Shown one piece after another: positions 10,107 to 63,760 of a stretch of DNA of 64,000 nucleotides. Under the pieces are notes generated by a model. That model did not search any database. It was not told the DNA's origin and saw only the letters and a program-made list of their open reading frames with translations. Every line of letters starts with the position of its first letter. The stretch's first letter is position 1. The translations under genes and the position numbers were made by a program. Origin of the DNA: a virus; the IMG/VR virus record IMGVR_UViG_3300023074_000001, positions 32,001 through 96,000 of that record. One strand, 5' to 3'.

Positions 10107-10901
10107 ATGACTGAAAAAGACACTAGATTTAAGGTTTCTTGGAGTAGTTTACAAAGACATGAGTATTGTAAGGCTAAGCATTTTCTTGTATTGGAGGGTC
10201 ATACGGTTCCTGGTAAGGACGCAAGAAACTTCCTTGCCGGTAATGTTATTGACTCTGTGCAAAAAGCTTGGCTTGACAATCCTGTAGGTAGTATGGATGC
10301 TATGGTTGATGATCATATGGAAATGGCTATTGCCGAATCTGAAATCAAGGGTAGCATCAAGTGGCGCAATAAGAATGATAAAAAGAATATCAATACTTCC
10401 TGTCATACGGCTGCTGTACAACTTCAACCTATTTTGGAAGCTAGAGTATTGCCTTATGATTATGAGCCTGCTAAGAGGTTCTATACTCCCGTCAAGATTC
10501 GTAAGCCTGATGGTGAAGTATTAGAGATTATTCTTCGAGGTGAGTTCGACTTATTGGTAAAGGATAATTTTGGCAAATTCATAGTATGGGATTTGAAGAC
10601 TACAGCAGACAATGACTATTGGAAAAAAACATTAGGACAACTGGTGTTTTATGATTTAGCCATCTACAGTATGTTTGGTGAGCCTCCTGTAAAGACAGGA
10701 TTTATTCAGCCGCTCTGTGATGAACAAGTCAAGGAGTTCTATTTCGATGACTCTCATAGAGCTGAAATGTGGGGGAGAATTAATTCTATGATGCAGGCTT
10801 TGTGGGTAGAGGATTACAGCCCAAAAGTTGATAACACAGGCTGCTCATTCTGTGAGGTTGCCCACTCCTGCCCTAAGTTCAAGAGGAAGTTATTTAGTTG
10901 A
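10107..10901 (+). CDS. Cas4/RecB-like PD-(D/E)XK exonuclease
   Basis: SWSSL..C, GEFD..VWDLKT, QLVFY, terminal CSFCEVAHSC. Confidence 0.85.
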   Translation: MTEKDTRFKVSWSSLQRHEYCKAKHFLVLEGHTVPGKDARNFLAGNVIDSVQKAWLDNPVGSMDAMVDDHMEMAIAESEIKGSIKWRNKNDKKNINTSCHTAAVQLQPILEARVLPYDYEPAKRFYTPVKIRKPDGEVLEIILRGEFDLLVKDNFGKFIVWDLKTTADNDYWKKTLGQLVFYDLAIYSMFGEPPVKTGFIQPLCDEQVKEFYFDDSHRAEMWGRINSMMQALWVEDYSPKVDNTGCSFCEVAHSCPKFKRKLFS

Positions 10902-11073
10902 GCAAGCCTGGATACTATGATAAAACTCGTATGTTGGAATTCATGCAAAAAGAAGTAAATTGTTTAAGCTCTAGACTAATAGAATTGCCTCAGTCTACAG
11001 AAAGATTAGCGCTGCAATATTGTGTAGGTGCATTGCAGACAAGCATGTACAGAATTCAACATGGAAGTGATGA

Positions 11074-11322
11074 ATGAGCAATACAGACGCTATTATCGAT
11101 AATCTTAAGGCTCGCAGAAATGCAGCTCAACTAGCTAGGGTACGAGCTGAGACATTAAAAGAAACAGCTCAGGCATCGTACGATGCTGCTATAGCTAGTT
11201 TAAAGTCTGAGTTTGCTGTTGACACCATCGAGGATGCTCGTGCTAGACTTAGTGATCTACAACGTCAATTCGAATCTCAGCTGGAAGACATTACAGCAAA
11301 ATTAGATGCAATGGGGTGTTAA
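11074..11322 (+). CDS. coiled-coil protein
   Basis: Heptad-like helical sequence. Confidence 0.65.
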   Translation: MSNTDAIIDNLKARRNAAQLARVRAETLKETAQASYDAAIASLKSEFAVDTIEDARARLSDLQRQFESQLEDITAKLDAMGC

Positions 11323-11323
11323 A

Positions 11324-12574
11324 GTGGATCAGACAGGCGGAGTTGCAGAGCTAGATATTCTTAGTTGGCTTGACAGTGAAGAATCCGTTAAGCCCAAAAT
11401 AGCAGTTAGATCTTCAGCTCATGCTAAAAGTCTCACTACGGATAACACTGTTAAAATGGGTTTTGAGGTACAGCGAGAGGTATTGCTGAGTTTACTGAAC
11501 AAGGCTATTTCTGCTGTACCTAGTAATACTATGATTCCTGTGCTCAATAACTTCAAGTGCGCAGTAGGCAACGATAAGTTAGTTGTTGTTGGTAGCTCGA
11601 AGAGTATGTCTATTGCAGTAACTACGGATCAGGTTAGTATTAGTACTGAAGGCACACAGGTATTTCCTGCGAAAACATTCCTGAATATTGTTAAAGAATG
11701 TAATCCAGGGTCTACGGTATTTATAGAAGTTACTGATGTTGGTGCAGTCATCGTAGCTGGAAGCTTTAGTGTAGAAATAGCTTTAGCTAAAGCTGATGGA
11801 TACCCCGCACTTGAAGATGTTTCTGCATTAGAGTTTCACCAGGTCAACAGATTGCAATTTATAGATGCTATAAACATTGTGAAATATGCTCTACCTAGTA
11901 GAGAGTTTTCTGGTCAGAGTTCTATGAAGATGATCAACATCAAGGGTGGTAAGTTCACCGCCTGCGACGGATCACGATTTCAGCAGAGTAGGATTCATGG
12001 GTTCAAGTTGCACATGCAGCTACCAGCTGATAGTATCAGCATACTGAACAAGCTGCTAGGTGGCTCTGACCTGGAGAACCTGGAAATTGGTGAGGTTACT
12101 AAGAAATTAATCTTCAAACTCGGCACTACAGTATTCTATGTCAATAAGCTTGATGATCCATATCCTAATGTTGAACAGCTCTGGCTTAGACCTGCTCTCA
12201 CTAACGATCAGGAATTGCTTGTGGATCGTCAGGAATTGATTACAGCAATCAAGCAGGTAAGAACTACAGCTGATACTAATTCTTCTGCATTAGGTCTTCA
12301 AGTAGAGGCCGAATCTATGAGAATAGTAACTAAGGATACTAATAACTCAGCTTCTGCTACTATAGCCTGTAAATGGTCGGGTAAATCTAGAAACATTGTT
12401 GTCAATTACCTGCATCTTGCAGAAATGTTAAAGGCTTATCCCTCAACTGAGTGTAGATTTATGTTAGGTGAGGATACACAGAAGCATAAGTCACCTATTC
12501 TACTGCGAGATGATGATACGATGGCGATTGCAACAATCAGTCAGCTACTTGCGTACCAGCCAGGTTTGCTGTAG
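11324..12574 (+). CDS. dnaN: DNA polymerase III beta sliding clamp
   Basis: FEVQREVLLSLL..A..AVP..IPVL, ACDGSRF, YPNVE, VNYLHLAEML; three-domain length. Confidence 0.88.
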   Translation: MDQTGGVAELDILSWLDSEESVKPKIAVRSSAHAKSLTTDNTVKMGFEVQREVLLSLLNKAISAVPSNTMIPVLNNFKCAVGNDKLVVVGSSKSMSIAVTTDQVSISTEGTQVFPAKTFLNIVKECNPGSTVFIEVTDVGAVIVAGSFSVEIALAKADGYPALEDVSALEFHQVNRLQFIDAINIVKYALPSREFSGQSSMKMINIKGGKFTACDGSRFQQSRIHGFKLHMQLPADSISILNKLLGGSDLENLEIGEVTKKLIFKLGTTVFYVNKLDDPYPNVEQLWLRPALTNDQELLVDRQELITAIKQVRTTADTNSSALGLQVEAESMRIVTKDTNNSASATIACKWSGKSRNIVVNYLHLAEMLKAYPSTECRFMLGEDTQKHKSPILLRDDDTMAIATISQLLAYQPGLL

Positions 12575-43765: not shown

Positions 43766-43855
43766 CATACCTCACAGGATAGGGGTTGCATACGGTAGCC
43801 CCTACCTACTAGGGTAGTACCTAGATAGCTTACCTACACAGAATGGATACCCACC

Positions 43856-44245
43856 ATGATCGCACGTATCATCGCCCTACTGCTCACCCTACTGGTAGCG
43901 GGTACCGTAGCCACCGCATGTAGCACCCCTGAGAGTGCCGTACAGACCATGGTCAGTGTCACCCCTACTGCTACCCCTAGCCTGCCTGTGTGTGTGGTGG
44001 AGGATGGTGCAGGGCAGGCACTGTGTATGTGGGATGCGCACAGGGCAGGCAATGGCATGGGTACTGATGTGGTCAGTGGTGACTGTGCTCTCACTCTCAC
44101 ACACGATGACATGACACAGGGCATGTGCCTCAACGTGCATCACGATGGGGTTGACGGGCCTGATGCGGTACGGGAATGCAATGACATTTACGAGCAGGCT
44201 AAGGGCAAAGTCAATTTGCTCGAATGTTATCGGGCAATGCTTTGA
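43856..44245 (+). CDS. secreted/lipoprotein, Cys-containing
   Basis: Signal peptide, ATAC; LPVC..EDG...C.WDA..GNGMG. Confidence 0.7.
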   Translation: MIARIIALLLTLLVAGTVATACSTPESAVQTMVSVTPTATPSLPVCVVEDGAGQALCMWDAHRAGNGMGTDVVSGDCALTLTHDDMTQGMCLNVHHDGVDGPDAVRECNDIYEQAKGKVNLLECYRAML

Positions 44246-44265
44246 CAATAAAAGAATGGTAATGC

Positions 44266-44324
44266 AATTGCACCGGAAAAGGGGAATGCGAAAAACACTC
44301 CTCAATTCCGGTGCAATTTTTTTT
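44266..44324 (+). terminator. terminator ending the + strand block
   Basis: AATTGCACCGGAA/TTCCGGTGCAATT plus T run. Confidence 0.75.
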
Positions 44325-44422
44325 ATGCCCGCGACAGCTGTTGGGATTTTTATAGTTAATTCCTACTAAACCGATAGGATATCCTCTGAGTTCTCCACAA
44401 CTAATATAATACAGAACAGGGA

Positions 44423-44505
44423 GTTTCCAAGGAAACCAACCCTAAAATCTGCTGGAAACCTCAAGGAAACTCCCCTGGAAACGTTCTGGAAACCACCTTG
44501 GAAAC
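44423..44505. repeat. clt-like array: six direct GGAAAC plus one inverted copy
   Basis: GGAAAC at 44431, 44454, 44465, 44477, 44488, 44500; GTTTCC at 44423; abuts translocase stop codon. Confidence 0.85.
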
Positions 44506-46485
44506 TTAGCCTAAATAGCGCCAGAATCCTTCCGGTGTCTTCTCCAGTCTACCCTCTGACTGCATAGCGGTGAGCCTCTTACTGACCCATGATTTACCTC
44601 TGTCTGCCGTCATGGATTCCTGTATTTCCTTGTTGACGAAGGTAGTCTTTCCTTCGGCTTTCCAGGACTCCAGAATATTGTAAACCTCCGCAATAGCTGA
44701 AGCAGTCTCATAAGGATCTGTACCTAAATTCCCAGTAGTTTGCGCCTTGGTAGGAATTACTTGAGTAGGTTGTGCGGGACTCAAGTCTATAGTTTCTAGA
44801 TCCTCCAATGTCAATACTTGCGTATCAGGTGCTACCGGCCAATCCTTTGTGGTGTCTCTGAATCCTCTGTTGGATCTCATTTCCTGCCAGGAGGTACTAC
44901 CCGCAGCTACACTATCTCTATAAGCCTGGTAATCCAAACCTAATGCATCAGCGGTAATATTGTCCATAGGATACTCAGGATATGAATCCACATGCTGCTC
45001 TAGATTTCTTACATCTATCCAGTCACTAAGAAGCTGATGAGACGCTAGTCTCTGATCTATCCCAGCAGCCTCTAGATAGAAATGGCCGGGGAATCTATCC
45101 TGCCATAAATGCGGGCTAGCTCCCGATGAACGAGCATACTCCGATAACCCGAACTCAGCATCTCTTTTAGCTTTGACGCCGAAACACATATTACCGCCGA
45201 GGTTATAGCGAGCTGAGGTATTGATACGGTCAGCAGTAGCACGCTGAAGACTAAGCACAATAGTTATTCCAGCAGAACGAGCAGCCTCTAGAAGTTCGAT
45301 CAAATCATTGACCTTAGCAAAACGAGCAGCCTCCTCCAGATGGAAAATCAAGAAGTTAAGACCGCAACCTGACTCCCAATGAGATAATCCTATGCTGGTA
45401 AGGTAATTAGTACGAGCCTCAACAGCATTGATGACAGCATCAATCTGTTTCAGACAATCATCCTCGGTCCAGGCGAACCAAGCCAGCTTAGAAGCCAGAG
45501 GCCCCCCTGTCTGCATACCTTTAGCAGGATCTCCATAGATGACAGACACCTCACTACGAGCCAATACGGTACCATAAATAGCCTGCCAAGCCTTTGACTT
45601 ACCTGTTCCTGGCATTCCTACAGTAAGGAAATGCTGAGATGAGCCTCCATCTTTTCCAGCAATATAGATGACACCACGCTGACCTGTGTCATAAGTAGCG
45701 AATCCTACAGGAGCAACAATCGATTGACCAGGGTATTCTGGCCCCAGCCAAGGATTCTTAGTCTTAAAAGGATTCTCATCGAGAATAGTAATATCTACTT
45801 CACCTTCGATACCGGAATCTGTTTCTGAAACGTGTACTAGAGTACGAGGCTTACCAGCTATTTGAGCCATCTCGATAGCCTTACTCTTAGCATCCTCTAT
45901 TCTTTTACCTAAGCTAAGTTTCATACGGTAGACAGCACCATTACTGGTTTTGTAGCTCTTTTCCTTGTTGATATGGGTAGATTCACCCAGACCGATAGCA
46001 GCAAAGGGATTCTCACTTTTAGTGCTGTTCTCGTTGTCTTCACCTCTGTAGGCCCACCTGCGAATACACCAGGATAAACCTAGAACAGCTCCACCGTACA
46101 TGAAAGTATAGACCGTAGGCATACCGAACATCCACTCACCGAGATCCTGCCATACTGCAATAATCATCCATACGTGTACTAATACAGAAGTAACAGCAGC
46201 ATGTACAGAAATGAAGTGATGAAATTGGTCTCTAGGTCGAAAAAGTTTCCAGGCTAATGCTGATAAAATCAGCATACTAACAACAATAATAATTGTCAGT
46301 ACCTGACTAGCATCTACTGCGGAGGTATCCCCCCAATTCACCTGTGCCCATACACCTAATCTACTGATAACAGCCATGAGAAAAGCTAAACCCGCCCCGA
46401 TGAGCATAGCAATATACGGTAAAGCTTTACCGAACAGTGCGTATTCATCATCGTAGCGGGTTACGTTAATGTTTCTTGTTGCCAC
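44506..46485 (-). CDS. traB: FtsK/SpoIIIE-family DNA translocase, actinomycete conjugative TraB-like
   Basis: N-terminal TM helices, GMPGTGKS, FHLEEAA, ARSAGITIVLSLQRA, C-terminal winged helix (KSWVSKRL..GRLEK..GFWR); GTG after AGGAG. Confidence 0.8.
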   Translation of the reverse strand: MATRNINVTRYDDEYALFGKALPYIAMLIGAGLAFLMAVISRLGVWAQVNWGDTSAVDASQVLTIIIVVSMLILSALAWKLFRPRDQFHHFISVHAAVTSVLVHVWMIIAVWQDLGEWMFGMPTVYTFMYGGAVLGLSWCIRRWAYRGEDNENSTKSENPFAAIGLGESTHINKEKSYKTSNGAVYRMKLSLGKRIEDAKSKAIEMAQIAGKPRTLVHVSETDSGIEGEVDITILDENPFKTKNPWLGPEYPGQSIVAPVGFATYDTGQRGVIYIAGKDGGSSQHFLTVGMPGTGKSKAWQAIYGTVLARSEVSVIYGDPAKGMQTGGPLASKLAWFAWTEDDCLKQIDAVINAVEARTNYLTSIGLSHWESGCGLNFLIFHLEEAARFAKVNDLIELLEAARSAGITIVLSLQRATADRINTSARYNLGGNMCFGVKAKRDAEFGLSEYARSSGASPHLWQDRFPGHFYLEAAGIDQRLASHQLLSDWIDVRNLEQHVDSYPEYPMDNITADALGLDYQAYRDSVAAGSTSWQEMRSNRGFRDTTKDWPVAPDTQVLTLEDLETIDLSPAQPTQVIPTKAQTTGNLGTDPYETASAIAEVYNILESWKAEGKTTFVNKEIQESMTADRGKSWVSKRLTAMQSEGRLEKTPEGFWRYLG

Positions 46486-46751
46486 AGCGACTCCTGTCTT
46501 ATTGTCCTCTACTCTAGAGAGCATAAGAGTCAGCATAGCACGATTATTTCTTAGTGTGCAACTATCTGTCTTTGCGAGAATCCCAGGCCACGGAAGCTAT
46601 AAGCCCACAAATTACCCCAGAGGGTAGGATTCCTATTAAGGTAAAAAACCAATAAAAGGAATCCGTTAGACCAAGGTAGATGCAGAAGCCTATGACTATC
46701 GCAAAAATGCAAGTCAAAATAGAGAACCCTGCGAATATTAAGTTTTCCATG

Positions 46752-47633
46752 TTACACTTTCTGTCTGGCTCTATGTACAGCCTTGTACATAGAGCCGTAT
46801 TGAATGTCCGAACCCTTGACAATTCTTGCCCAGGACAAAATAGTATTGATGTCCAGTTGACCATTCTGTACACAGATCTCTGCGATTTTTGCCAAGGACA
46901 TGGTTGGCTCTCTGGGAAGCCAGTCGGGAAGGATGACTAGTTCACCCTCGTACACAACATCATCGATGTCTTGTTCTGTTCTTGGCATGACAAGTTCTGT
47001 CTTTTCAACAATCTGTACATTGTTAGTCGCTGTCTCAGACATGTCCAGCTGTGGGATGTCTATAATGTCTTCTTGTACGACAGCCTTCCCAACAAAAATG
47101 GCATGTCTATCCTCAGGAATGTCAAGCTTGTCAGCGGCATCTACCAGGCGTTTCTGCATAGAAATACTCATCAACTGCCATGTTTGTTTACGATACCTAA
47201 CCCATGTCAATATTCCCACTCTTGGCAATCTTGGCACTAGTGTACCAGCTGTGCGGCGTTGCTGCCTTGTCATGAAGGACAACATGACCTTCAACATGAC
47301 ACCCGCAATAACAGGAGCAGCCCCAAACATGACCATGCCAACAATTCCGTAGTCATTGACTAGAGCATGTTGTACATTGATGTAAACACTTGTCAGGACA
47401 AAAGTAAATGCCCACAACTCAGGCCAGACACCGCTGTCGTCTGTCTTGGCATATTCAATAGCCATCATGCCAAGCCAAATGGCACCCAGGTCAAATGCTA
47501 AGGATACACCGGCGGACAAAAGCCAAGGAAGGTCAAACCCATTAGTTGCCAAGTCGGTCATAGAATACCAAGACATAGACAAAGCAATGACAACAACTAC
47601 AGCAAATAAAATCCAGTGATACCATCTGATCAT
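46752..47633 (-). CDS. DUF2637/SpdA-like membrane protein with C-terminal helical DNA-binding-like tail
   Basis: Four TM helices with S...L, D, S...NV.H, P pattern; ends YKAVHRARQK. Confidence 0.72.
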   Translation of the reverse strand: MIRWYHWILFAVVVVIALSMSWYSMTDLATNGFDLPWLLSAGVSLAFDLGAIWLGMMAIEYAKTDDSGVWPELWAFTFVLTSVYINVQHALVNDYGIVGMVMFGAAPVIAGVMLKVMLSFMTRQQRRTAGTLVPRLPRVGILTWVRYRKQTWQLMSISMQKRLVDAADKLDIPEDRHAIFVGKAVVQEDIIDIPQLDMSETATNNVQIVEKTELVMPRTEQDIDDVVYEGELVILPDWLPREPTMSLAKIAEICVQNGQLDINTILSWARIVKGSDIQYGSMYKAVHRARQKV

Positions 47634-47642
47634 GCGGACTCC

Positions 47643-47987
47643 CTAATAACTATCATTTTGCGCTAGAGCTACACCTCGATCTACACCTTCGGCATATGCC
47701 TTGTCCAATTCTGTTTCTAGTTCTGTTATTCTCTCTTCAAGGTCTTGGATTTGCTGATCGTATTCTTCTTCCATCTGCTCCTGCATAGAAGCCTCGCCAT
47801 CTTCAACACCGAGTTGATAAGCAGTATCACGCTCATTATCGATTCTGTCAGAATACTGAGCAACAAGTACTTCTAGCTTTTCCAGCAGCCATTTACGATC
47901 AATACTTAATGGCTCTGACGGATTTTCATCTATCAGAGCCATAACGTCTTCTGCAAATTTATAAGCAGTATTATCTTGAGTAGTCAT
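47643..47987 (-). CDS. acidic coiled-coil protein
   Basis: ORF track; AY..G..DG repeats. Confidence 0.65.
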   Translation of the reverse strand: MTTQDNTAYKFAEDVMALIDENPSEPLSIDRKWLLEKLEVLVAQYSDRIDNERDTAYQLGVEDGEASMQEQMEEEYDQQIQDLEERITELETELDKAYAEGVDRGVALAQNDSY

Positions 47988-61535: not shown

Positions 61536-62198
61536 TCAGTATTGATAAAGTTCATGGCGCACCTTCCTCAGCCAATTATCAATTGGTACAGGATTAGGAA
61601 CCTCTGGCAATACACACGGTGCGTTGTTAAACATTTCTTTGTACAGAGCTAAGGTGTCTGTGGCAAGTTGTAGATTACCCGCTGCAATCTCTTCACCAAA
61701 ATCGATGAACTTCTGCGGCTCAGCTAGTCTCACAGAATAGGTTCCTGTCGTATACAACTCATAACCCTGATGCAGCAGACGAAACATATGACGTGCCTGC
61801 TTCGGCTTGCTAGACGCAGTTAGCTCTTTAAGTTGTTCAGTAGCATAACCTATATAGGAGTTGCGTACGTACTTGCGAGATAAAAAGTTATTTCTCAGTT
61901 CTACAAGTTCTGTACCTAAAACTGTGCGAACGTTATAATCTTTAATCCACAGCAAATCTAGGACGGTAGGATTGCACTTGAGAGCGAGCCTGCAATACTT
62001 GCCTACTTCATGATAAGTAGTGTCAGGATTCTTGAAAACAAAAGATTCCTGAACTGTACCCATACCATGAAACATTATAGTAGGGGCCGCGTAAATCCCA
62101 AGGAAATCTTCGTCGGAATGTTCATTATGGAGCCCGAAGGCTCGGGAGCCAACACGAGCTTTTAACAACGTGTTGGCTCCCGGGTTAACTATCATCAT
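61536..62198 (-). CDS. Pol-beta superfamily nucleotidyltransferase (YcgL/RlaP-like)
   Basis: GSRAFGL...SDEDFLG, NP, SYIGYA, HMFRL. Confidence 0.88.
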   Translation of the reverse strand: MMIVNPGANTLLKARVGSRAFGLHNEHSDEDFLGIYAAPTIMFHGMGTVQESFVFKNPDTTYHEVGKYCRLALKCNPTVLDLLWIKDYNVRTVLGTELVELRNNFLSRKYVRNSYIGYATEQLKELTASSKPKQARHMFRLLHQGYELYTTGTYSVRLAEPQKFIDFGEEIAAGNLQLATDTLALYKEMFNNAPCVLPEVPNPVPIDNWLRKVRHELYQY

Positions 62199-62351
62199 GC
62201 TATTAGTTCCTTAATATGCCCACACCGGCATTCATAAATTTTAATATCGATAGTAGGCGGCATAAACGGGTAAAAGAAAAGTAGAGTCAAGTACTTAAGG
62301 GGATTAGCCTTTGACTCTACTTTCACAAACTTATGCCAATGAATATGAAAC

Positions 62352-63440
62352 TTAGTCGGCATCGTTGGACACCTTTACAGGAGAATAATCATGCTTAGGC
62401 TTACAACGACGCAACCACTCTGGACGAATGTTCTTACCATCGTAAAGATTAAACAGAGCCCAAGCATAGTTATGATCCTTTGCCTTCATAGCAAATTCCT
62501 TCTTGCTCGGGTTGACTCCAATTTCAGTAAGAATTCGATCATAGCTGATGCAGCAATACTCTACAAACTCATCAACCTCAGTATCAATGTCGTCCTGAAC
62601 TCCGCGAACAAAGCCGTGGAACTCATCCGGTACCTTCTCGATAAGTTCATCAACAGTACCATCTACCATAGCCTGCCACACAGAACGAGCATTCAGTCCT
62701 GTAACAATACGGTGAAGTGCGATGTAATCCTCCTGCTTAATCTTGACACGAACATCATGATTGTACAGGTTGACAACAAAGCCTTCCTTACCTGCGCGTG
62801 GAGGTGCCTCTAGTGCCTCTCGAAAAGTAGTGTACGGAAAAGACTCAGCCTTAGGTCCGGGCCAACTCCAATCCAGTACACCAGCATCCCAGTTGTCGCC
62901 GGTTGAGATATCTACTGAAGCCAGAAGAATTAAATCATCCATGTCGCCGTAATCACACACAATACGGTTCTCGGGATAGATAATTTCAAACAACAGAGTA
63001 ATACCCTTAGGAGGAACATAATTTGCGTACTTGGTACGGAACAACTTAGTAGCATGGATAGCCTGCTCGGAAGCGAAACTACCGCGAGTAGCAATAGCGT
63101 ATTCACCACTCAGAGGTTCACGATACAAAATACCCAGGGAACCATCCATCTTGTCAGAAACAACAGCAGGCTCATCAAGATCGATAGTAGGACAACCTAC
63201 CTGGCCGTAGTTGAAGAACTTAGGTAGCGGACGAGCAACAATCCAATTGAAGGCATCCACAATAAGCCCACGACAATTCATGGTGACCTTATTCCAAACA
63301 CCGTCGAATGCTGCTTTTTCGGTGTAGTTAAGGATAAACAGTTCAGGATTGTCAGGGTGAGTATTAACACGGACATAGCCCTGCTCAAGCATGTTAGCAA
63401 ATGCATCCTCTCGAAAGAGGATGTTAGTGTGATCCTTCAT
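62352..63440 (-). CDS. RNA ligase, T4 Rnl1 family
   Basis: CRGLI, PKFFN, KMDGSLG, TRGSF, FEII, EGFV, KIK..Y..LH. Confidence 0.93.
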   Translation of the reverse strand: MKDHTNILFREDAFANMLEQGYVRVNTHPDNPELFILNYTEKAAFDGVWNKVTMNCRGLIVDAFNWIVARPLPKFFNYGQVGCPTIDLDEPAVVSDKMDGSLGILYREPLSGEYAIATRGSFASEQAIHATKLFRTKYANYVPPKGITLLFEIIYPENRIVCDYGDMDDLILLASVDISTGDNWDAGVLDWSWPGPKAESFPYTTFREALEAPPRAGKEGFVVNLYNHDVRVKIKQEDYIALHRIVTGLNARSVWQAMVDGTVDELIEKVPDEFHGFVRGVQDDIDTEVDEFVEYCCISYDRILTEIGVNPSKKEFAMKAKDHNYAWALFNLYDGKNIRPEWLRRCKPKHDYSPVKVSNDAD

Positions 63441-63451
63441 GGTGTTACTCC

Positions 63452-63760
63452 TCACCTAGCGATTTGTGTACCAAGCACCACCCAACGAAGGTCATCGCCT
63501 GTGAGTGTTACTAGGTCTGAATGTCTACGGTCATCTTGACCCTGTTCGATGCTTACTCCGGCAGAGCCTACCACAACAGGTGTGAATCTCCAAACGCCGT
63601 CCTCATCGCGTCGAACTCGCAGAAGCGTACCATCTGATACTGCCAGAATCAAGCTGTCTGAGGGGGTGTCAAGATAAACATTGAACTCCTCTGCGGGAAA
63701 GCTCGTCCCGTCAATCTCAATAAGATCATCGCTTGCACCATAAATTGTTAATTCATCCAT
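63452..63760 (-). CDS. hypothetical phage protein
   Basis: IYGASDDLIEIDG...EEF motif. Confidence 0.7.
   Translation of the reverse strand: MDELTIYGASDDLIEIDGTSFPAEEFNVYLDTPSDSLILAVSDGTLLRVRRDEDGVWRFTPVVVGSAGVSIEQGQDDRRHSDLVTLTGDDLRWVVLGTQIAR

What the first reader, a model, noticed from the sequence alone, without database searches (positions are those of the whole stretch)
44423..47633. Plasmid-type DNA transfer module (TraB + clt-like repeats + SpdA-like gene) inside a phage genome
Seen: a membrane-anchored FtsK ATPase with a C-terminal winged helix. Directly after its stop codon are six GGAAAC copies (spacing 23, 11, 12, 11, 12 bp, roughly one helix face) plus one inverted copy. A DUF2637-like membrane gene lies upstream in the same orientation. 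Established: mycelial actinomycete plasmids and AICEs transfer dsDNA with a single TraB translocase whose wHTH binds short direct repeats at the clt locus, assisted by Spd proteins for intramycelial spread. Inference: the phage may pump its own genome between hyphae or across septa without virions. Related phages may already carry an 'FtsK-like' annotation; the cis site and module logic are the new part.
Basis: partly seen in the sequence, partly recalled or inferred. Interest (0 to 1): 0.92.

Follow-up and report, generated by a model that had tools for sequence, protein, structure and literature searches.

The report
Phage TraB DNA pump with docking repeats
A large tailed soil phage carries the plasmid-type DNA pump TraB, the short repeated DNA label that such pumps grip, and a membrane partner gene, so it may be able to push its own DNA between host cells or hyphal compartments without virus particles.

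Summary
Six GGAAAC copies plus one inverted copy (44423-44505) abut the stop codon of a 659-676-aa gene, and this is the only such cluster in the 135,654-bp genome. The protein is a full-length homologue of Streptomyces plasmid TraB (NCBIfam NF041214, E 6.5e-96, below the equivalog cut-off). Its model has four membrane helices, an FtsK-type motor and a C-terminal winged helix. A Pfam DUF2637 membrane gene lies upstream. The record is a tailed phage (portal, capsid, tape measure, DNA polymerase) with no integrase, resolvase, ParB or WhiB match.

In six of six plasmids checked, including pWTY27 and pJV1 whose clt loci are experimentally defined, repeat arrays start at the traB stop in the same way. 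Related phages keep the module, and many have arrays of a different unit. The unit changes together with one residue of the predicted recognition helix (16 of 16 loci; 4 of 4 independent contrasts, too few for significance). Two near-identical phages differ in just this helix-plus-array segment.

DNA binding, DNA export and the host are all untested. The 'SpdA-like' label is not supported.

Precedents are the Streptomyces plasmid-phage pZL12 and the phage-plasmid pCQ3. Earlier AI notes of this scan report similar phage TraB arrays on other genomes.

The parts
44423..44505 (-). Phased repeat array (candidate clt or TraB docking site). It has six direct copies, GTTTCC in the traB sense (GGAAAC on +), at 11-12-bp steps with one degenerate slot. 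A seventh, inverted copy forms a palindrome with the last direct copy.
   Evidence: 6 copies; 0 of 200 shuffles reach this; only cluster in the genome.
44506..46536 (-). TraB-family membrane-anchored dsDNA translocase. The listed ORF is 676 aa; the likely start is the GTG at 46485, giving 659 aa. Walker A (GTGKSK) and Walker B (HLEE) are invariant in 24 homologues. The predicted wHTH covers residues 608-674, with the recognition helix at 648-660.
   Evidence: (NF041214, E 6.5e-96, 322 bits, profile 19-631 of 639).
46562..46750 (-). Small two-helix membrane ORF (62 aa from the internal ATG) directly upstream of traB. It is conserved in relatives.
   Evidence: (tblastn hits just before traB in L001, L002, L003, L004, L005, L007, L017, L018, L020).
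46752..47633 (-). DUF2637 membrane protein (four helices, 3-129) with a disordered linker and a conserved C-terminal three-helix domain (247-292). Its coding DNA is the genome's peak of GACA/TGTC (31 copies in 882 nt).
47643..47987 (-). Coiled-coil 114-aa ORF that travels with the module (DnaX - this ORF - DUF2637 - small ORF - traB). Function unknown.
44403..44430 (-). Promoter-like site (TTGGAA, 16 nt, TATATT). Its first hexamer is formed by the junction of the last direct copy and the inverted copy.
   Evidence: This is a consensus match only: the scan found 7 sites against 6.9 expected in shuffles. A TATA-rich block follows the inverted copy in most relatives.
44256..44405 (.). Convergence zone. 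It holds the intrinsic terminator of the + strand lipoprotein-like gene (hairpin about 44270-44320 followed by a T run) and a nucleotide-conserved element of about 75 nt with unknown role.
   Evidence: only the terminator hairpin covaries; no Rfam match.

Best explanation
This is a phage-borne version of the actinomycete TraB/clt double-stranded-DNA transfer system.

Proposed mechanism:
1. The 659-676-aa protein is a membrane-anchored, FtsK-type hexameric pump of the plasmid TraB family.
2. Its C-terminal winged helix reads the short repeats that begin at its own stop codon. The repeats are six phased direct copies closed by an inverted copy.
3. This loads the pump onto phage DNA.
4. The DUF2637 membrane protein and a small membrane protein, both co-transcribed upstream, are accessory parts of the pore or tether. 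The DUF2637 protein's conserved C-terminal helical domain may hold the GACA/TGTC-rich DNA of its own gene.
5. Once loaded, the pump would push unprocessed double-stranded phage DNA through a membrane or septum into a neighbouring compartment or cell. Infection could then spread without virions.

Shown here: homology, fold, repeat architecture, conservation of the module, and joint change of the helix and the repeat unit.

Inferred, with my estimates of probability:
- The wHTH binds the array: about 0.7.
- DNA is exported between cells or compartments: about 0.4.
- The host is a mycelial actinomycete: about 0.6.
For: Family:
- NCBIfam plasmid_TraB NF041214 matches at E 6.5e-96 over profile positions 19-631 of 639. 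The only other NCBIfam hit is EccCb at E 1.3e-4.
- tblastn finds 51 plasmid records: Streptomyces 45, Nonomuraea 3, and Thermobispora, Amycolatopsis and Streptosporangium 1 each. They include pWTY27, pJV1 and pSN22.
- In an 81-row tree the 23 phage-type rows form one clade (SH-aLRT 99) inside the TraB radiation, with Micromonospora FtsK as root. One cluster of the sister group holds a Micromonospora tulbaghiae protein.

Fold:
- The model shows four membrane helices, an FtsK-like motor (Foldseek 6t8g, E 6.8e-15) and a C-terminal wHTH.
- Walker A and B are invariant in 24 sequences.

Cis site:
- The array is unique in the genome.
- Positive control: in 6 of 6 plasmids, repeat arrays start at or within the traB stop codon.
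- pWTY27's clt covers 16 bp within the tra gene (traA in the paper, annotated traB in RefSeq) plus the adjacent 159 bp. It has 7-bp direct repeats and inverted repeats and is bound by the Tra protein. pJV1's clt has nine 9-bp direct repeats (PMC3583192 passages; PMC4447253 introduction).

Relatives:
- In 7 of 21 rows (20 loci plus the window), at most 2 of 200 shuffles reach the observed count. In 11 of 21, at most 17 of 200 do.
- Units differ between loci (TTTCC, ATTCC, ATTAC, ATCACC, TTTAC, TTTTA), and spacings are nearly always 11-12 bp or multiples.
- Lys at position W+3 of the recognition helix coincides with a unit ending in TCC in 16 of 16 loci, and in 4 of 4 independent contrasts.
- L012 and L013 are 95-100% identical in DNA on both sides but only 44-45% identical across the wHTH coding end plus the array. 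Their DUF2637 proteins are almost identical.

Module:
- A DUF2637 gene lies upstream of traB in 13 of 14 loci that have at least 1.6 kb of upstream flank.
- A DUF2637 gene lies upstream of traA-traB on pWTY27 and on the NBC_00104 plasmid.
Against: - The host is unknown. The source is a leaf-litter metagenome.
- The only cultured relative found, Microbacterium phage Magritte (major capsid 53.9% identical), infects a non-mycelial host. It has no TraB match and a different gene order.
- The NCBIfam score of 322 bits is far below the equivalog cut-off of 800. Pfam FtsK_SpoIIIE reaches only 12.1 bits.
- No TraR-type GntR gene scores over its cut-off, and no TraA homologue was found.
- Ten of 21 rows show no statistically clear array. 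These include the three most distant loci (L019, L023, L027), L005 and L022.
- The repeat units were assigned by eye.
- The helix coding region and the array are adjacent in the DNA. Their joint change could therefore reflect physical linkage in one recombination tract rather than function. Four contrasts give p = 0.125.
- The array overlaps a promoter-like site.
- The genome looks virulent: no integrase, resolvase or ParB match. The benefit of exporting DNA from a cell that will lyse is not obvious.
Confidence: 0.5

Rival explanations
1. The array is mainly a transcriptional control element. The TraB winged helix, or another phage protein, binds the phased repeats to repress or activate the promoter-like site that overlaps the inverted copy. 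This could also block read-through at the convergence of the two transcription arms. Under this reading the pump acts on DNA chosen in some other way.
For: A TTGGAA-16-TATATT site lies at 44430-44403, with its first hexamer made by the repeat junction. A TATA-rich block follows the inverted copy in most relatives. Direct repeats at 11-bp steps next to a promoter are typical of winged-helix activators of the OmpR/PhoB type; this point is recalled, not from a call. In plasmids, unregulated traB is toxic and is under TraR control (PMC4447253 introduction), and no TraR was found here.
Against: The promoter scan found no more sites than shuffles give (7 against 6.9). In 8 relatives a terminator hairpin follows at once, so nothing obvious would be transcribed. 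Plasmid clt loci with proven transfer function have the same position and build.
Confidence: 0.15
2. The pump does move phage DNA across septa, but its purpose is persistence rather than spread. It would load phage genomes into prespore compartments or resting cells, giving a carrier state, in the way SpoIIIE/FtsK-type pumps move chromosomes into spores.
For: The same molecular evidence as for the best explanation applies. TraB resembles the septal translocators FtsK/SpoIIIE (PMC4447253 introduction). The genome has no integrase or partition genes that would otherwise give persistence.
Against: There is no evidence on the host's life cycle. Known TraB systems act in conjugation and intramycelial spreading, not in sporulation (PMC4447253 abstract and passages).
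Confidence: 0.12
3. The array is a replication origin (iterons) or a partition centromere of the parC type, bound by a different protein. On this reading its position after traB is a coincidence of genome layout.
For: The array lies in the only convergent intergenic zone of this region, where the GC skew changes sign. It adjoins an AT-rich stretch. Short phased direct repeats are also typical of iterons: pWTY27 itself has an iteron region with 8-bp and 7-bp repeats (PMC3583192 passages).
Against: The array abuts or overlaps the traB stop in every relative that has one, and in 6 of 6 plasmids. The unit changes together with the TraB C-terminal helix, while the flanks and the DUF2637 protein stay the same. 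No ParB was found. The GC-skew switch coincides with the switch of coding strand.
Confidence: 0.08
4. A host response regulator of the OmpR family binds the GAAAC-type repeats, coupling the locus to host physiology. GlnR-type boxes contain GAAAC half-sites at 11-nt steps; that consensus is recalled, not from a call.
For: This rests only on the resemblance of the unit and its 11-12-bp phasing in this one phage.
Against: Closely related phages have quite different units (ATTAC, ATCACC, TTTAC). A conserved host protein would not follow such changes. The changes track the phage's own helix.
Confidence: 0.05

Closest known systems
TraB (named Tra or TraA in some papers) with clt on Streptomyces plasmids pWTY27, pJV1 and pSN22 (NCBIfam NF041214)
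   Same: Full-length homology at 26-27% identity over 79-84% of the protein, up to its last residues. Both have N-terminal membrane helices, an FtsK-type motor and a C-terminal DNA-recognition domain. Short direct repeats plus an inverted copy start at the stop codon. A DUF2637 gene lies upstream on pWTY27.
   Different: The setting is a 135-kb tailed phage, not a small plasmid. There is no TraR or TraA. The unit is 6-7 bp and AT-rich, at strict 11-12-bp steps. The score is below the family's equivalog cut-off. The DUF2637 gene is saturated with GACA/TGTC, which the plasmid genes are not.
Streptomyces plasmid-phage pZL12 and phage-plasmid pCQ3
   Same: Both combine virion genes and a TraB-type transfer gene on one replicon. 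pCQ3 has traA-traB with repeats after the stop, followed by major capsid, HK97 gp10-family and tail-domain genes. The pZL12 paper's title names replication, transfer and a plasmid/lytic phage cycle; I saw the title only, in reference lists.
   Different: pCQ3 has ParA/ParB, an integrase and WhiB genes, and pZL12 has ParA/ParB (PMC4487206 passage). The present genome has none of these. Instead it has its own DNA polymerase, a clamp loader, ribonucleotide reductase, RNA-repair genes and many tRNAs. TraB is about 27% identical to the pCQ3 protein.
FtsK/SpoIIIE with KOPS/SRS read by the gamma winged helix
   Same: The motor fold is the same (Foldseek E 6.8e-15, about 400 aligned columns). Both have a membrane anchor, a flexible linker and a C-terminal winged helix that reads short DNA words.
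   Different: Sequence similarity is marginal: Pfam 12.1 bits and a PDB profile search at E 0.002. The motif is one local array, not a genome-wide skewed word; the GGAAAC strand skew ranks 429 of 1,939 hexamer pairs.
Spd proteins of Streptomyces plasmids (SpdB2, an integral membrane DNA binder; SpdA2/sps)
   Same: These are membrane or DNA-binding helpers encoded beside traB. SpdB2 and SpdA interact with TraB (PMC4447253 passages). SpdA2 binds a motif inside its own gene (PMC4170104 abstract), which is a parallel to the GACA/TGTC field inside the DUF2637 gene.
   Different: No significant sequence link was found between the phage DUF2637 profile and the traB-neighbouring genes of pJV1, pSN22 or pCQ3 (hhalign probabilities 0.4-18%). 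SpdA2 and SpdB2 sequences themselves were not compared.

Membership tests
Plasmid TraB (NCBIfam NF041214, equivalog) | Whole-protein score over the curated cut-off (800 bits) | tested here: not met
   322.3 bits, E 6.5e-96, profile 19-631 of 639. This makes it a homologue of the family, not an equivalog. A Streptomyces protein named TraB (P0075) scores 787.
Plasmid TraB (NCBIfam NF041214, equivalog) | FtsK-type ATPase motor with Walker A and B | tested here: met
   Foldseek FtsK motor domains, E 6.8e-15. GTGKSK and HLEE are invariant in 24 sequences.
Plasmid TraB (NCBIfam NF041214, equivalog) | N-terminal membrane anchor | tested here: met
   Four long helices, residues 29-164, in the model. 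This is a prediction only.
Plasmid TraB (NCBIfam NF041214, equivalog) | C-terminal winged helix whose third helix reads the repeats of clt | tested here: inconclusive
   A helix-helix-helix-strand-strand domain at 608-674, pLDDT about 80-87. One helix residue changes together with the repeat unit. Binding was not testable.
Plasmid TraB (NCBIfam NF041214, equivalog) | Groups with TraB and apart from chromosomal FtsK in a tree | tested here: met
   This was a quick search with LG+G4 and a single long FtsK root. Only 45 of 121 eligible representatives were used.
Plasmid TraB (NCBIfam NF041214, equivalog) | Drives conjugative transfer of double-stranded DNA | not testable with these tools
   Needs mating or mobilisation assays.
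[quoted passage not shown] | Short direct repeats, often with inverted repeats, at or near the 3' end of the tra gene | tested here: met
   The same layout occurs in 6 of 6 plasmids. Published descriptions are in PMC3583192.
[quoted passage not shown] | Bound specifically by the cognate TraB and required in cis for transfer | not testable with these tools
   Only indirect support: a cassette-like joint change of helix and unit.
Pfam DUF2637 (PF10935) | Score over the gathering cut-off (22.8 bits) | tested here: met
   28.4 bits, E 1.8e-6, residues 8-154. pWTY27 and NBC_00104 neighbours score 29.0 and 36.3 bits.
   No SpdA2 sequence of pIJ101 was compared. The passages read describe a purified DNA-binding protein with a zinc-finger-like motif (PMC4170104). 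The pSN22 ORF directly after traB, which I recall as spdA, has no Pfam family in common with it.
FtsK/SpoIIIE (Pfam PF01580) | Score over the gathering cut-off (24 bits) | tested here: not met
   12.1 bits in a six-frame search of the genome. No PF01580 hit at E 0.01 or better in the hmmscan of the protein.
Phage-plasmid of the pZL12/pCQ3 kind | Plasmid maintenance genes (ParA/ParB) and/or an integrase beside virion genes | tested here: not met
   No PF02195, PF00589 or PF00239 match in the genome. ParA families were not searched.

The most novel reading that the evidence does not exclude
An apparently virulent, tRNA-rich 135-kb phage uses a conjugation-type pump as a viral movement system. 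TraB docks on its private repeat array and drives replicating phage genomes through hyphal cross-walls or cell contacts, so one adsorption event can take over many compartments without virions. The wHTH-plus-array segment would act as an exchangeable specificity cassette, so that co-infecting relatives do not move each other's DNA. A second conserved field of GACA/TGTC inside the DUF2637 gene would tether the DNA to the membrane.
Probability: 0.3. Interest if true: 0.9.

Novelty: new variant of a known kind. Interest (0 to 1): 0.62.

Why it matters
TraB/clt is the one-protein conjugation system of mycelial actinomycetes. If a lytic-type phage uses it, phage infection could spread inside a mycelium as naked DNA. 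That would change how plaques, phage defence and phage ecology in soil actinomycetes are read.

The family also gives a natural set of matched helix-and-repeat pairs, including near-isogenic phages that differ only there. This set could be used to work out how TraB winged helices read DNA.

In my literature searches I found FtsK-like genes of Streptomyces phages mentioned without a function (PMC11536984 and PMC13587820 passages). I found no description of a clt-like site in a phage. The library lacks most subscription journals, and the pZL12 paper could not be read.

Tried and rejected
Searches that found nothing or were unavailable:
- The 'phages' collection gave no match for the module DNA, for the TraB protein or for its distant homologue P0073. 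The tool warns that near records may be left out, so this is weak evidence.
- A single-protein scan of viral contigs found nothing. The alignment-based scan found 2 loci.
The 130-139-kb relatives listed could therefore not be fetched, and only 27 loci were used.
- Rfam gave no match in 43800-44700.
- The pZL12 paper (PMC2897331) is not held.
- No RNA holder was listed for the stretch.
- A profile search of 401 sampled genomes of the class around a Micromonospora genome gave 8 genomes with TraB-level matches (at most 229 bits). There were no phage-level copies, so it gave no host clue.
- No TraA homologue and no GntR match over the cut-off were found in the genome.

Ideas rejected or left unsupported:
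- A KOPS-like genome-wide polarity of GGAAAC is rejected: 44 against 23 in coding sense, rank 429 of 1,939 hexamer pairs.
- hhalign of the phage DUF2637 profile against traB-neighbouring proteins of pWTY27, pJV1, pCQ3 and pSN22 gave probabilities of 0.4-18%. BLASTP against the pWTY27 DUF2637 protein gave E 0.04.
- Foldseek of the DUF2637 model gave no match at E 0.001 or better.
- Complex prediction of TraB 600-676 with DUF2637 233-293 gave no answer.
- An RNA reading of the conserved 75-nt element is unsupported. Only the terminator hairpin covaries.

Technical points:
- The exact k-mer repeat test was too crude and mis-set the L011 stop. It was replaced.
- The mixture-model tree did not finish and was replaced by an LG+G4 quick tree.
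- Supplementary files were not opened. The supplements of PMC4447253 (interaction tables) may bear on the Spd comparison.

Rows dropped:
- One search left out L007, L010 and L025 (no stop codon in the locus) and the duplicates L014, L017, L018 and L024.
- One search also left out L005 (no unit assigned), L022 (same protein end as L013, collapsed array) and L019, L023 and L027 (no array).
- One search used 45 of 121 eligible unnamed representatives. It labelled 22 metagenomic proteins as 'phage' on the strength of the loci seen, not one by one.

Full report
**What is there.** The minus-strand ORF 44506-46536 ends in TAA at 44508-44506. On the + strand, GGAAAC starts at 44431, 44454, 44465, 44477, 44488 and 44500, and one inverted copy lies at 44423-44428. 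Read in the sense of the gene, the stop codon is followed at once by GTTTCC copies at +3, +15, +26, +38, +49 and +72. There is a degenerate slot near +60, and then an inverted copy that forms a palindrome with the last direct copy.

The window holds 44 copies of the hexamer against 26.8 (sd 4.8) in shuffles. In the whole 135,654-bp genome no other place has three copies within 100 bp. A blind scan for five or more periodically spaced copies of any 7-mer hit only this array (three overlapping windows) and one A-rich window, out of 5,423.

**The replicon.** The window is bases 32001-96000 of a virus record of 135,654 bp with terminal repeats, rated 100% complete. The exact end repeat is 127 bp and G+C is 44.3%. 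The genome encodes a portal, a major head protein, a head decoration protein, a 1,624-aa tape measure, minor tail proteins, a weak terminase match, a family-A-like DNA polymerase and a helicase. It also encodes a clamp-loader ATPase, a class II ribonucleotide reductase, a polynucleotide kinase-phosphatase, an RNA ligase and an RlaP-like protein. The window alone holds 18 tRNA genes.

Six-frame searches found no tyrosine integrase, no resolvase-type recombinase, no ParB and no WhiB. It therefore looks like a virulent-type siphovirus, although ParA families and repressors were not searched.

The DNA occurs in a leaf-litter metagenome. The only cultured relative I could find is Microbacterium phage Magritte, with a major capsid 53.9% identical and a clamp loader 39.5% identical. 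Magritte has no TraB match and a different gene order next to its clamp loader.

**The protein.** Pfam gives only sub-threshold hits to coupling-protein families. PHROGs places the protein in an unnamed family (phrog_24831, E 6.1e-65), with a weak hit to an FtsK/SpoIIIE-like family. NCBIfam is decisive: plasmid transfer protein TraB (NF041214) matches at E 6.5e-96 over profile positions 19-631 of 639. The score is 322 bits, below the 800-bit equivalog cut-off.

tblastn against 72,556 plasmids found 51 records: Streptomyces 45, Nonomuraea 3, and Thermobispora, Amycolatopsis and Streptosporangium 1 each. These include pWTY27, pJV1 and pSN22 at 26-27% identity over 79-84% of the query, up to its last residues.

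The AlphaFold2 model (24-row alignment, mean pLDDT 74.9) has these parts:
- four long helices at 29-164;
- a beta-rich domain;
- an ATPase core at about 300-505;
- a disordered linker at 556-606;
- a C-terminal helix-helix-helix-hairpin domain at 608-674.

Foldseek's best matches are FtsK motor domains (E 6.8e-15), followed by TcpA and EccC. Walker A and B are invariant in 24 homologues. The likely start is the GTG at 46485, five bases after an AGGAG, which is where the homologues begin.

**The tree.** The tree has 81 rows: the window's protein, 22 metagenomic relatives, six plasmid TraBs, a Streptomyces TraB, two Micromonospora chromosomal homologues, 45 unnamed representatives, two pSAM2-type Tra proteins and Micromonospora FtsK as root. 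The phage-type rows form one clade (SH-aLRT 99), nested in the TraB radiation and far from FtsK. The named plasmid TraBs form another subclade. One cluster of the sister group includes a Micromonospora tulbaghiae protein. This was a quick search under LG+G4 with one long root branch, so the deep order is not secure.

**Is the array a clt?** The published picture is as follows. TraB binds a plasmid region called clt, and the clt regions contain direct 8-bp repeats recognised by the corresponding TraB (PMC4447253 introduction). For pWTY27, clt is 16 bp within the tra gene plus the adjacent 159 bp. It has four 7-bp direct repeats and inverted repeats and is footprinted by the Tra protein. pIJ101's clt has an inverted repeat and three 5-bp direct repeats. 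pJV1's clt has nine 9-bp direct repeats and two inverted pairs (PMC3583192 passages).

As a positive control, I ran my repeat test on six plasmids. In all six, arrays begin at or within the traB stop codon and include an inverted copy. Counting how many of 200 shuffles reached the observed copy number in the stretch from 20 bp before to 100 bp after the stop:
- pWTY27 (unit TGACACC): 1 of 200;
- pSN22 (CCGCACA): 0 of 200;
- the NBC_00104 plasmid (CCGCACA): 0 of 200;
- the S. canus plasmid (CTGACAC): 0 of 200;
- pJV1 (CCGCACA): 20 of 200;
- pCQ3 (CTGACA): 35 of 200, but 0 of 200 for the next 100 bp.

The phage array has the same position and build as these loci.

**Relatives.** The protein search found 76 homologues, mostly on metagenomic contigs. 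Many of those contigs are 130-139 kb, and one hit is a Streptomyces TraB at 28% identity. The exhaustive search found 581 cluster representatives. I could fetch 27 loci.

The gene order clamp loader, coiled-coil ORF, DUF2637, small membrane ORF, traB, and then a convergent lipoprotein-like gene is kept. DUF2637 lies upstream of traB in 13 of 14 loci with at least 1.6 kb of upstream flank (L023 is the exception).

For the 100 nt after the stop, 21 rows were tested with 200 shuffles each. At most 2 shuffles reached the observed count in 7 rows: the window and L001, L006, L009, L011, L013 and L021. At most 17 did in 11 rows. Ten rows were not significant. Among the ten are the three most distant loci, which have no visible array, and L005. 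L022 has the same protein end as L013 but only one direct and one inverted copy. Five others have arrays that are visible but degenerate.

Spacings are almost always 11-12 bp or multiples. The first copy abuts or overlaps the stop codon. The units differ between loci: TTTCC-type, ATTCC, ATTAC, ATCACC, TTTAC and TTTTA (assigned by eye).

**Joint change of helix and unit.** In the predicted recognition helix (648-660, around the invariant W650 and L655), Lys at W+3 goes with units ending in TCC in 16 of 16 loci. Gln-Asn goes with TTTA(C)-type units, Arg-Arg with ATTAC and Asp-Arg with ATCACC. On a tree built without the last 75 residues there are four independent contrasts, and all four are concordant. 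Four contrasts cannot reach significance (p = 0.125).

L012 and L013 are 95-100% identical in DNA at the 5' end of traB and again from about 140 bp after the stop. They are only 44-45% identical across the wHTH coding end plus the array. Their DUF2637 proteins are nearly identical. The helix and the array thus behave as one exchangeable cassette, and the DUF2637 protein does not set the array's unit.

The caveat is that the two parts are adjacent in the DNA. One recombination tract could move both without any functional tie.

**The partner gene.** The ORF 46752-47633 passes Pfam DUF2637. Its model has four membrane helices, a disordered linker and a conserved C-terminal three-helix domain. It has no structural match.

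A DUF2637 gene lies upstream of traA-traB on pWTY27 and on the NBC_00104 plasmid, which is 2 of the 6 plasmids checked. The neighbours of traB on pJV1, pSN22, pCQ3 and the S. canus plasmid do not hit the family. Profile comparisons with three of them (pJV1, pCQ3, pSN22) are weak.

The 'SpdA-like' label is not supported by what I read. SpdA2 was purified and binds a palindrome inside its own gene (PMC4170104). SpdB2, described as an integral membrane DNA binder that interacts with TraB (PMC4447253), is the nearer functional analogy. No homology to either protein was tested.

**A second cis feature.** Following a first-stage note and a hit of my own scan, I counted GACA/TGTC in the DUF2637 gene.
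- The gene holds 31 copies in 882 nt, against 7.0 expected from the window's density. Synonymous-codon shuffles reach this in 1 of 500.
- It is the top 800-nt window of the whole genome: 30 copies against a mean of 5.8 (sd 3.0).
- The same holds in 9 of 10 homologous genes, including the window's own. The gene is the peak of each of the 7 loci profiled, at 39-58 copies per kb against 9-14.
- It does not hold in the plasmid DUF2637 genes.

This word stays constant among relatives, as does the DUF2637 C-terminal domain, while the post-traB unit and the TraB helix vary. A simple reading is two protein-site pairs: DUF2637 with the GACA/TGTC field, and TraB with the array. That reading is untested.

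**Mechanism and rivals.** The best-supported reading is a TraB/clt-type DNA translocation module serving the phage's own DNA. My estimates are about 0.7 that the wHTH binds the array and about 0.4 that the result is export of phage DNA to neighbouring compartments or cells.

The rivals are:
- an operator or promoter role, since a TTGGAA-16-TATATT site overlaps the inverted copy, though the scan found no more sites than chance;
- loading of phage DNA into spores;
- an origin or centromere;
- a host OmpR-type regulator, which the changing units argue against.

A genome-wide KOPS-like polarity is not seen.

Points against the main reading are:
- the host is unknown;
- the one cultured relative infects Microbacterium;
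- TraR and TraA are absent;
- the family score is sub-threshold;
- ten loci have no clear array;
- it is unclear what a lytic phage gains from DNA export.

**Novelty.** A TraB gene on a virion-encoding replicon is not new. pCQ3 (85.5 kb) has traA-traB with repeats, then capsid and tail genes, ParA/ParB, an integrase and WhiB genes. pZL12 is a published plasmid-phage whose paper title names transfer; I saw the title only, and the paper is not held.

FtsK-like genes of Streptomyces phages are mentioned without a function in PMC11536984 and PMC13587820. A Thermobifida phage ORF is likened to FtsK in PMC4569894. I found no paper that describes a clt-like site in a phage (searches, in a library that lacks most subscription journals).

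Earlier AI notes of this scan report phage TraB genes with clt-like arrays on other genomes. Among them are a 77-kb phage without integrase and a case where the array changes with the pump's tail. I did not test those notes, and they are not independent evidence.

What this case adds:
- a large, apparently virulent, tRNA-rich phage lineage from soil and litter;
- a strictly phased array;
- a near-isogenic cassette swap;
- the GACA/TGTC field.

I rate it a new variant of a known kind, with interest 0.62.

Noticed in passing
window 46752-47633; also L001, L002, L004, L005, L010, L012, L013, L020 (DUF2637 genes): The DUF2637 coding sequence is the genome-wide peak of GACA/TGTC. It holds 31 copies in 882 nt against 7.0 expected, and synonymous shuffles reach this in 1 of 500. 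The enrichment is conserved in 9 of 10 homologous genes, including the window's own, but is absent from the plasmid DUF2637 genes of pWTY27 and NBC_00104.
   Followed up: partly
window about 44329-44400 (and the matching stretch in 10 loci, alignment A3): A non-coding element of about 75 nt lies between the array and the + strand terminator. It has invariant blocks across phages whose TraB proteins are only 52-72% identical. It has no Rfam match and no covarying structure apart from the neighbouring terminator hairpin.
   Followed up: partly
L002 5001-5700, L015 576-1260, L016 1-560: In three relatives the traB gene is read in two frames: the membrane part in one frame and the rest in another, with the change near a G/A-rich run. 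Split forms of 439-471 aa also appear in the protein search (P0062-P0068). The window's gene is in one frame.
   Followed up: partly
L022 1203-1225 against L013 6944-7020: The two loci have the same TraB C-terminus. L022 has one direct and one inverted repeat, while L013 has six direct and one inverted. This is either a copy-number change of the array or a collapse in assembly.
   Followed up: no
window 59315-63455 and 54743-56860: An RNA-repair gene set (polynucleotide kinase-phosphatase, RlaP-like nucleotidyltransferase, T4-type RNA ligase) and a class II ribonucleotide reductase share the minus-strand arm with many tRNA genes. This fits a defence against tRNA-cutting host systems.
   Followed up: no
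window 51119-51856 and 60317-61342: There is a Spherulin4-family protein (E 8.4e-37) and a collagen-repeat protein (E 1.2e-34). Both are unusual for a phage replication arm.
   Followed up: no
L032 (pWTY27) 10642-12102; L054 (pCQ3): The small plasmid pWTY27 is annotated with a phage major capsid protein gene downstream of its clt. pCQ3 is a full phage-plasmid with traA-traB. This suggests repeated traffic of the TraB module between plasmids and phages.
   Followed up: partly
L004 4042-4626: Most relatives have an extra gene of about 194 aa and a 51-aa membrane ORF between DUF2637 and the small ORF before traB. The window lacks these.
   Followed up: no
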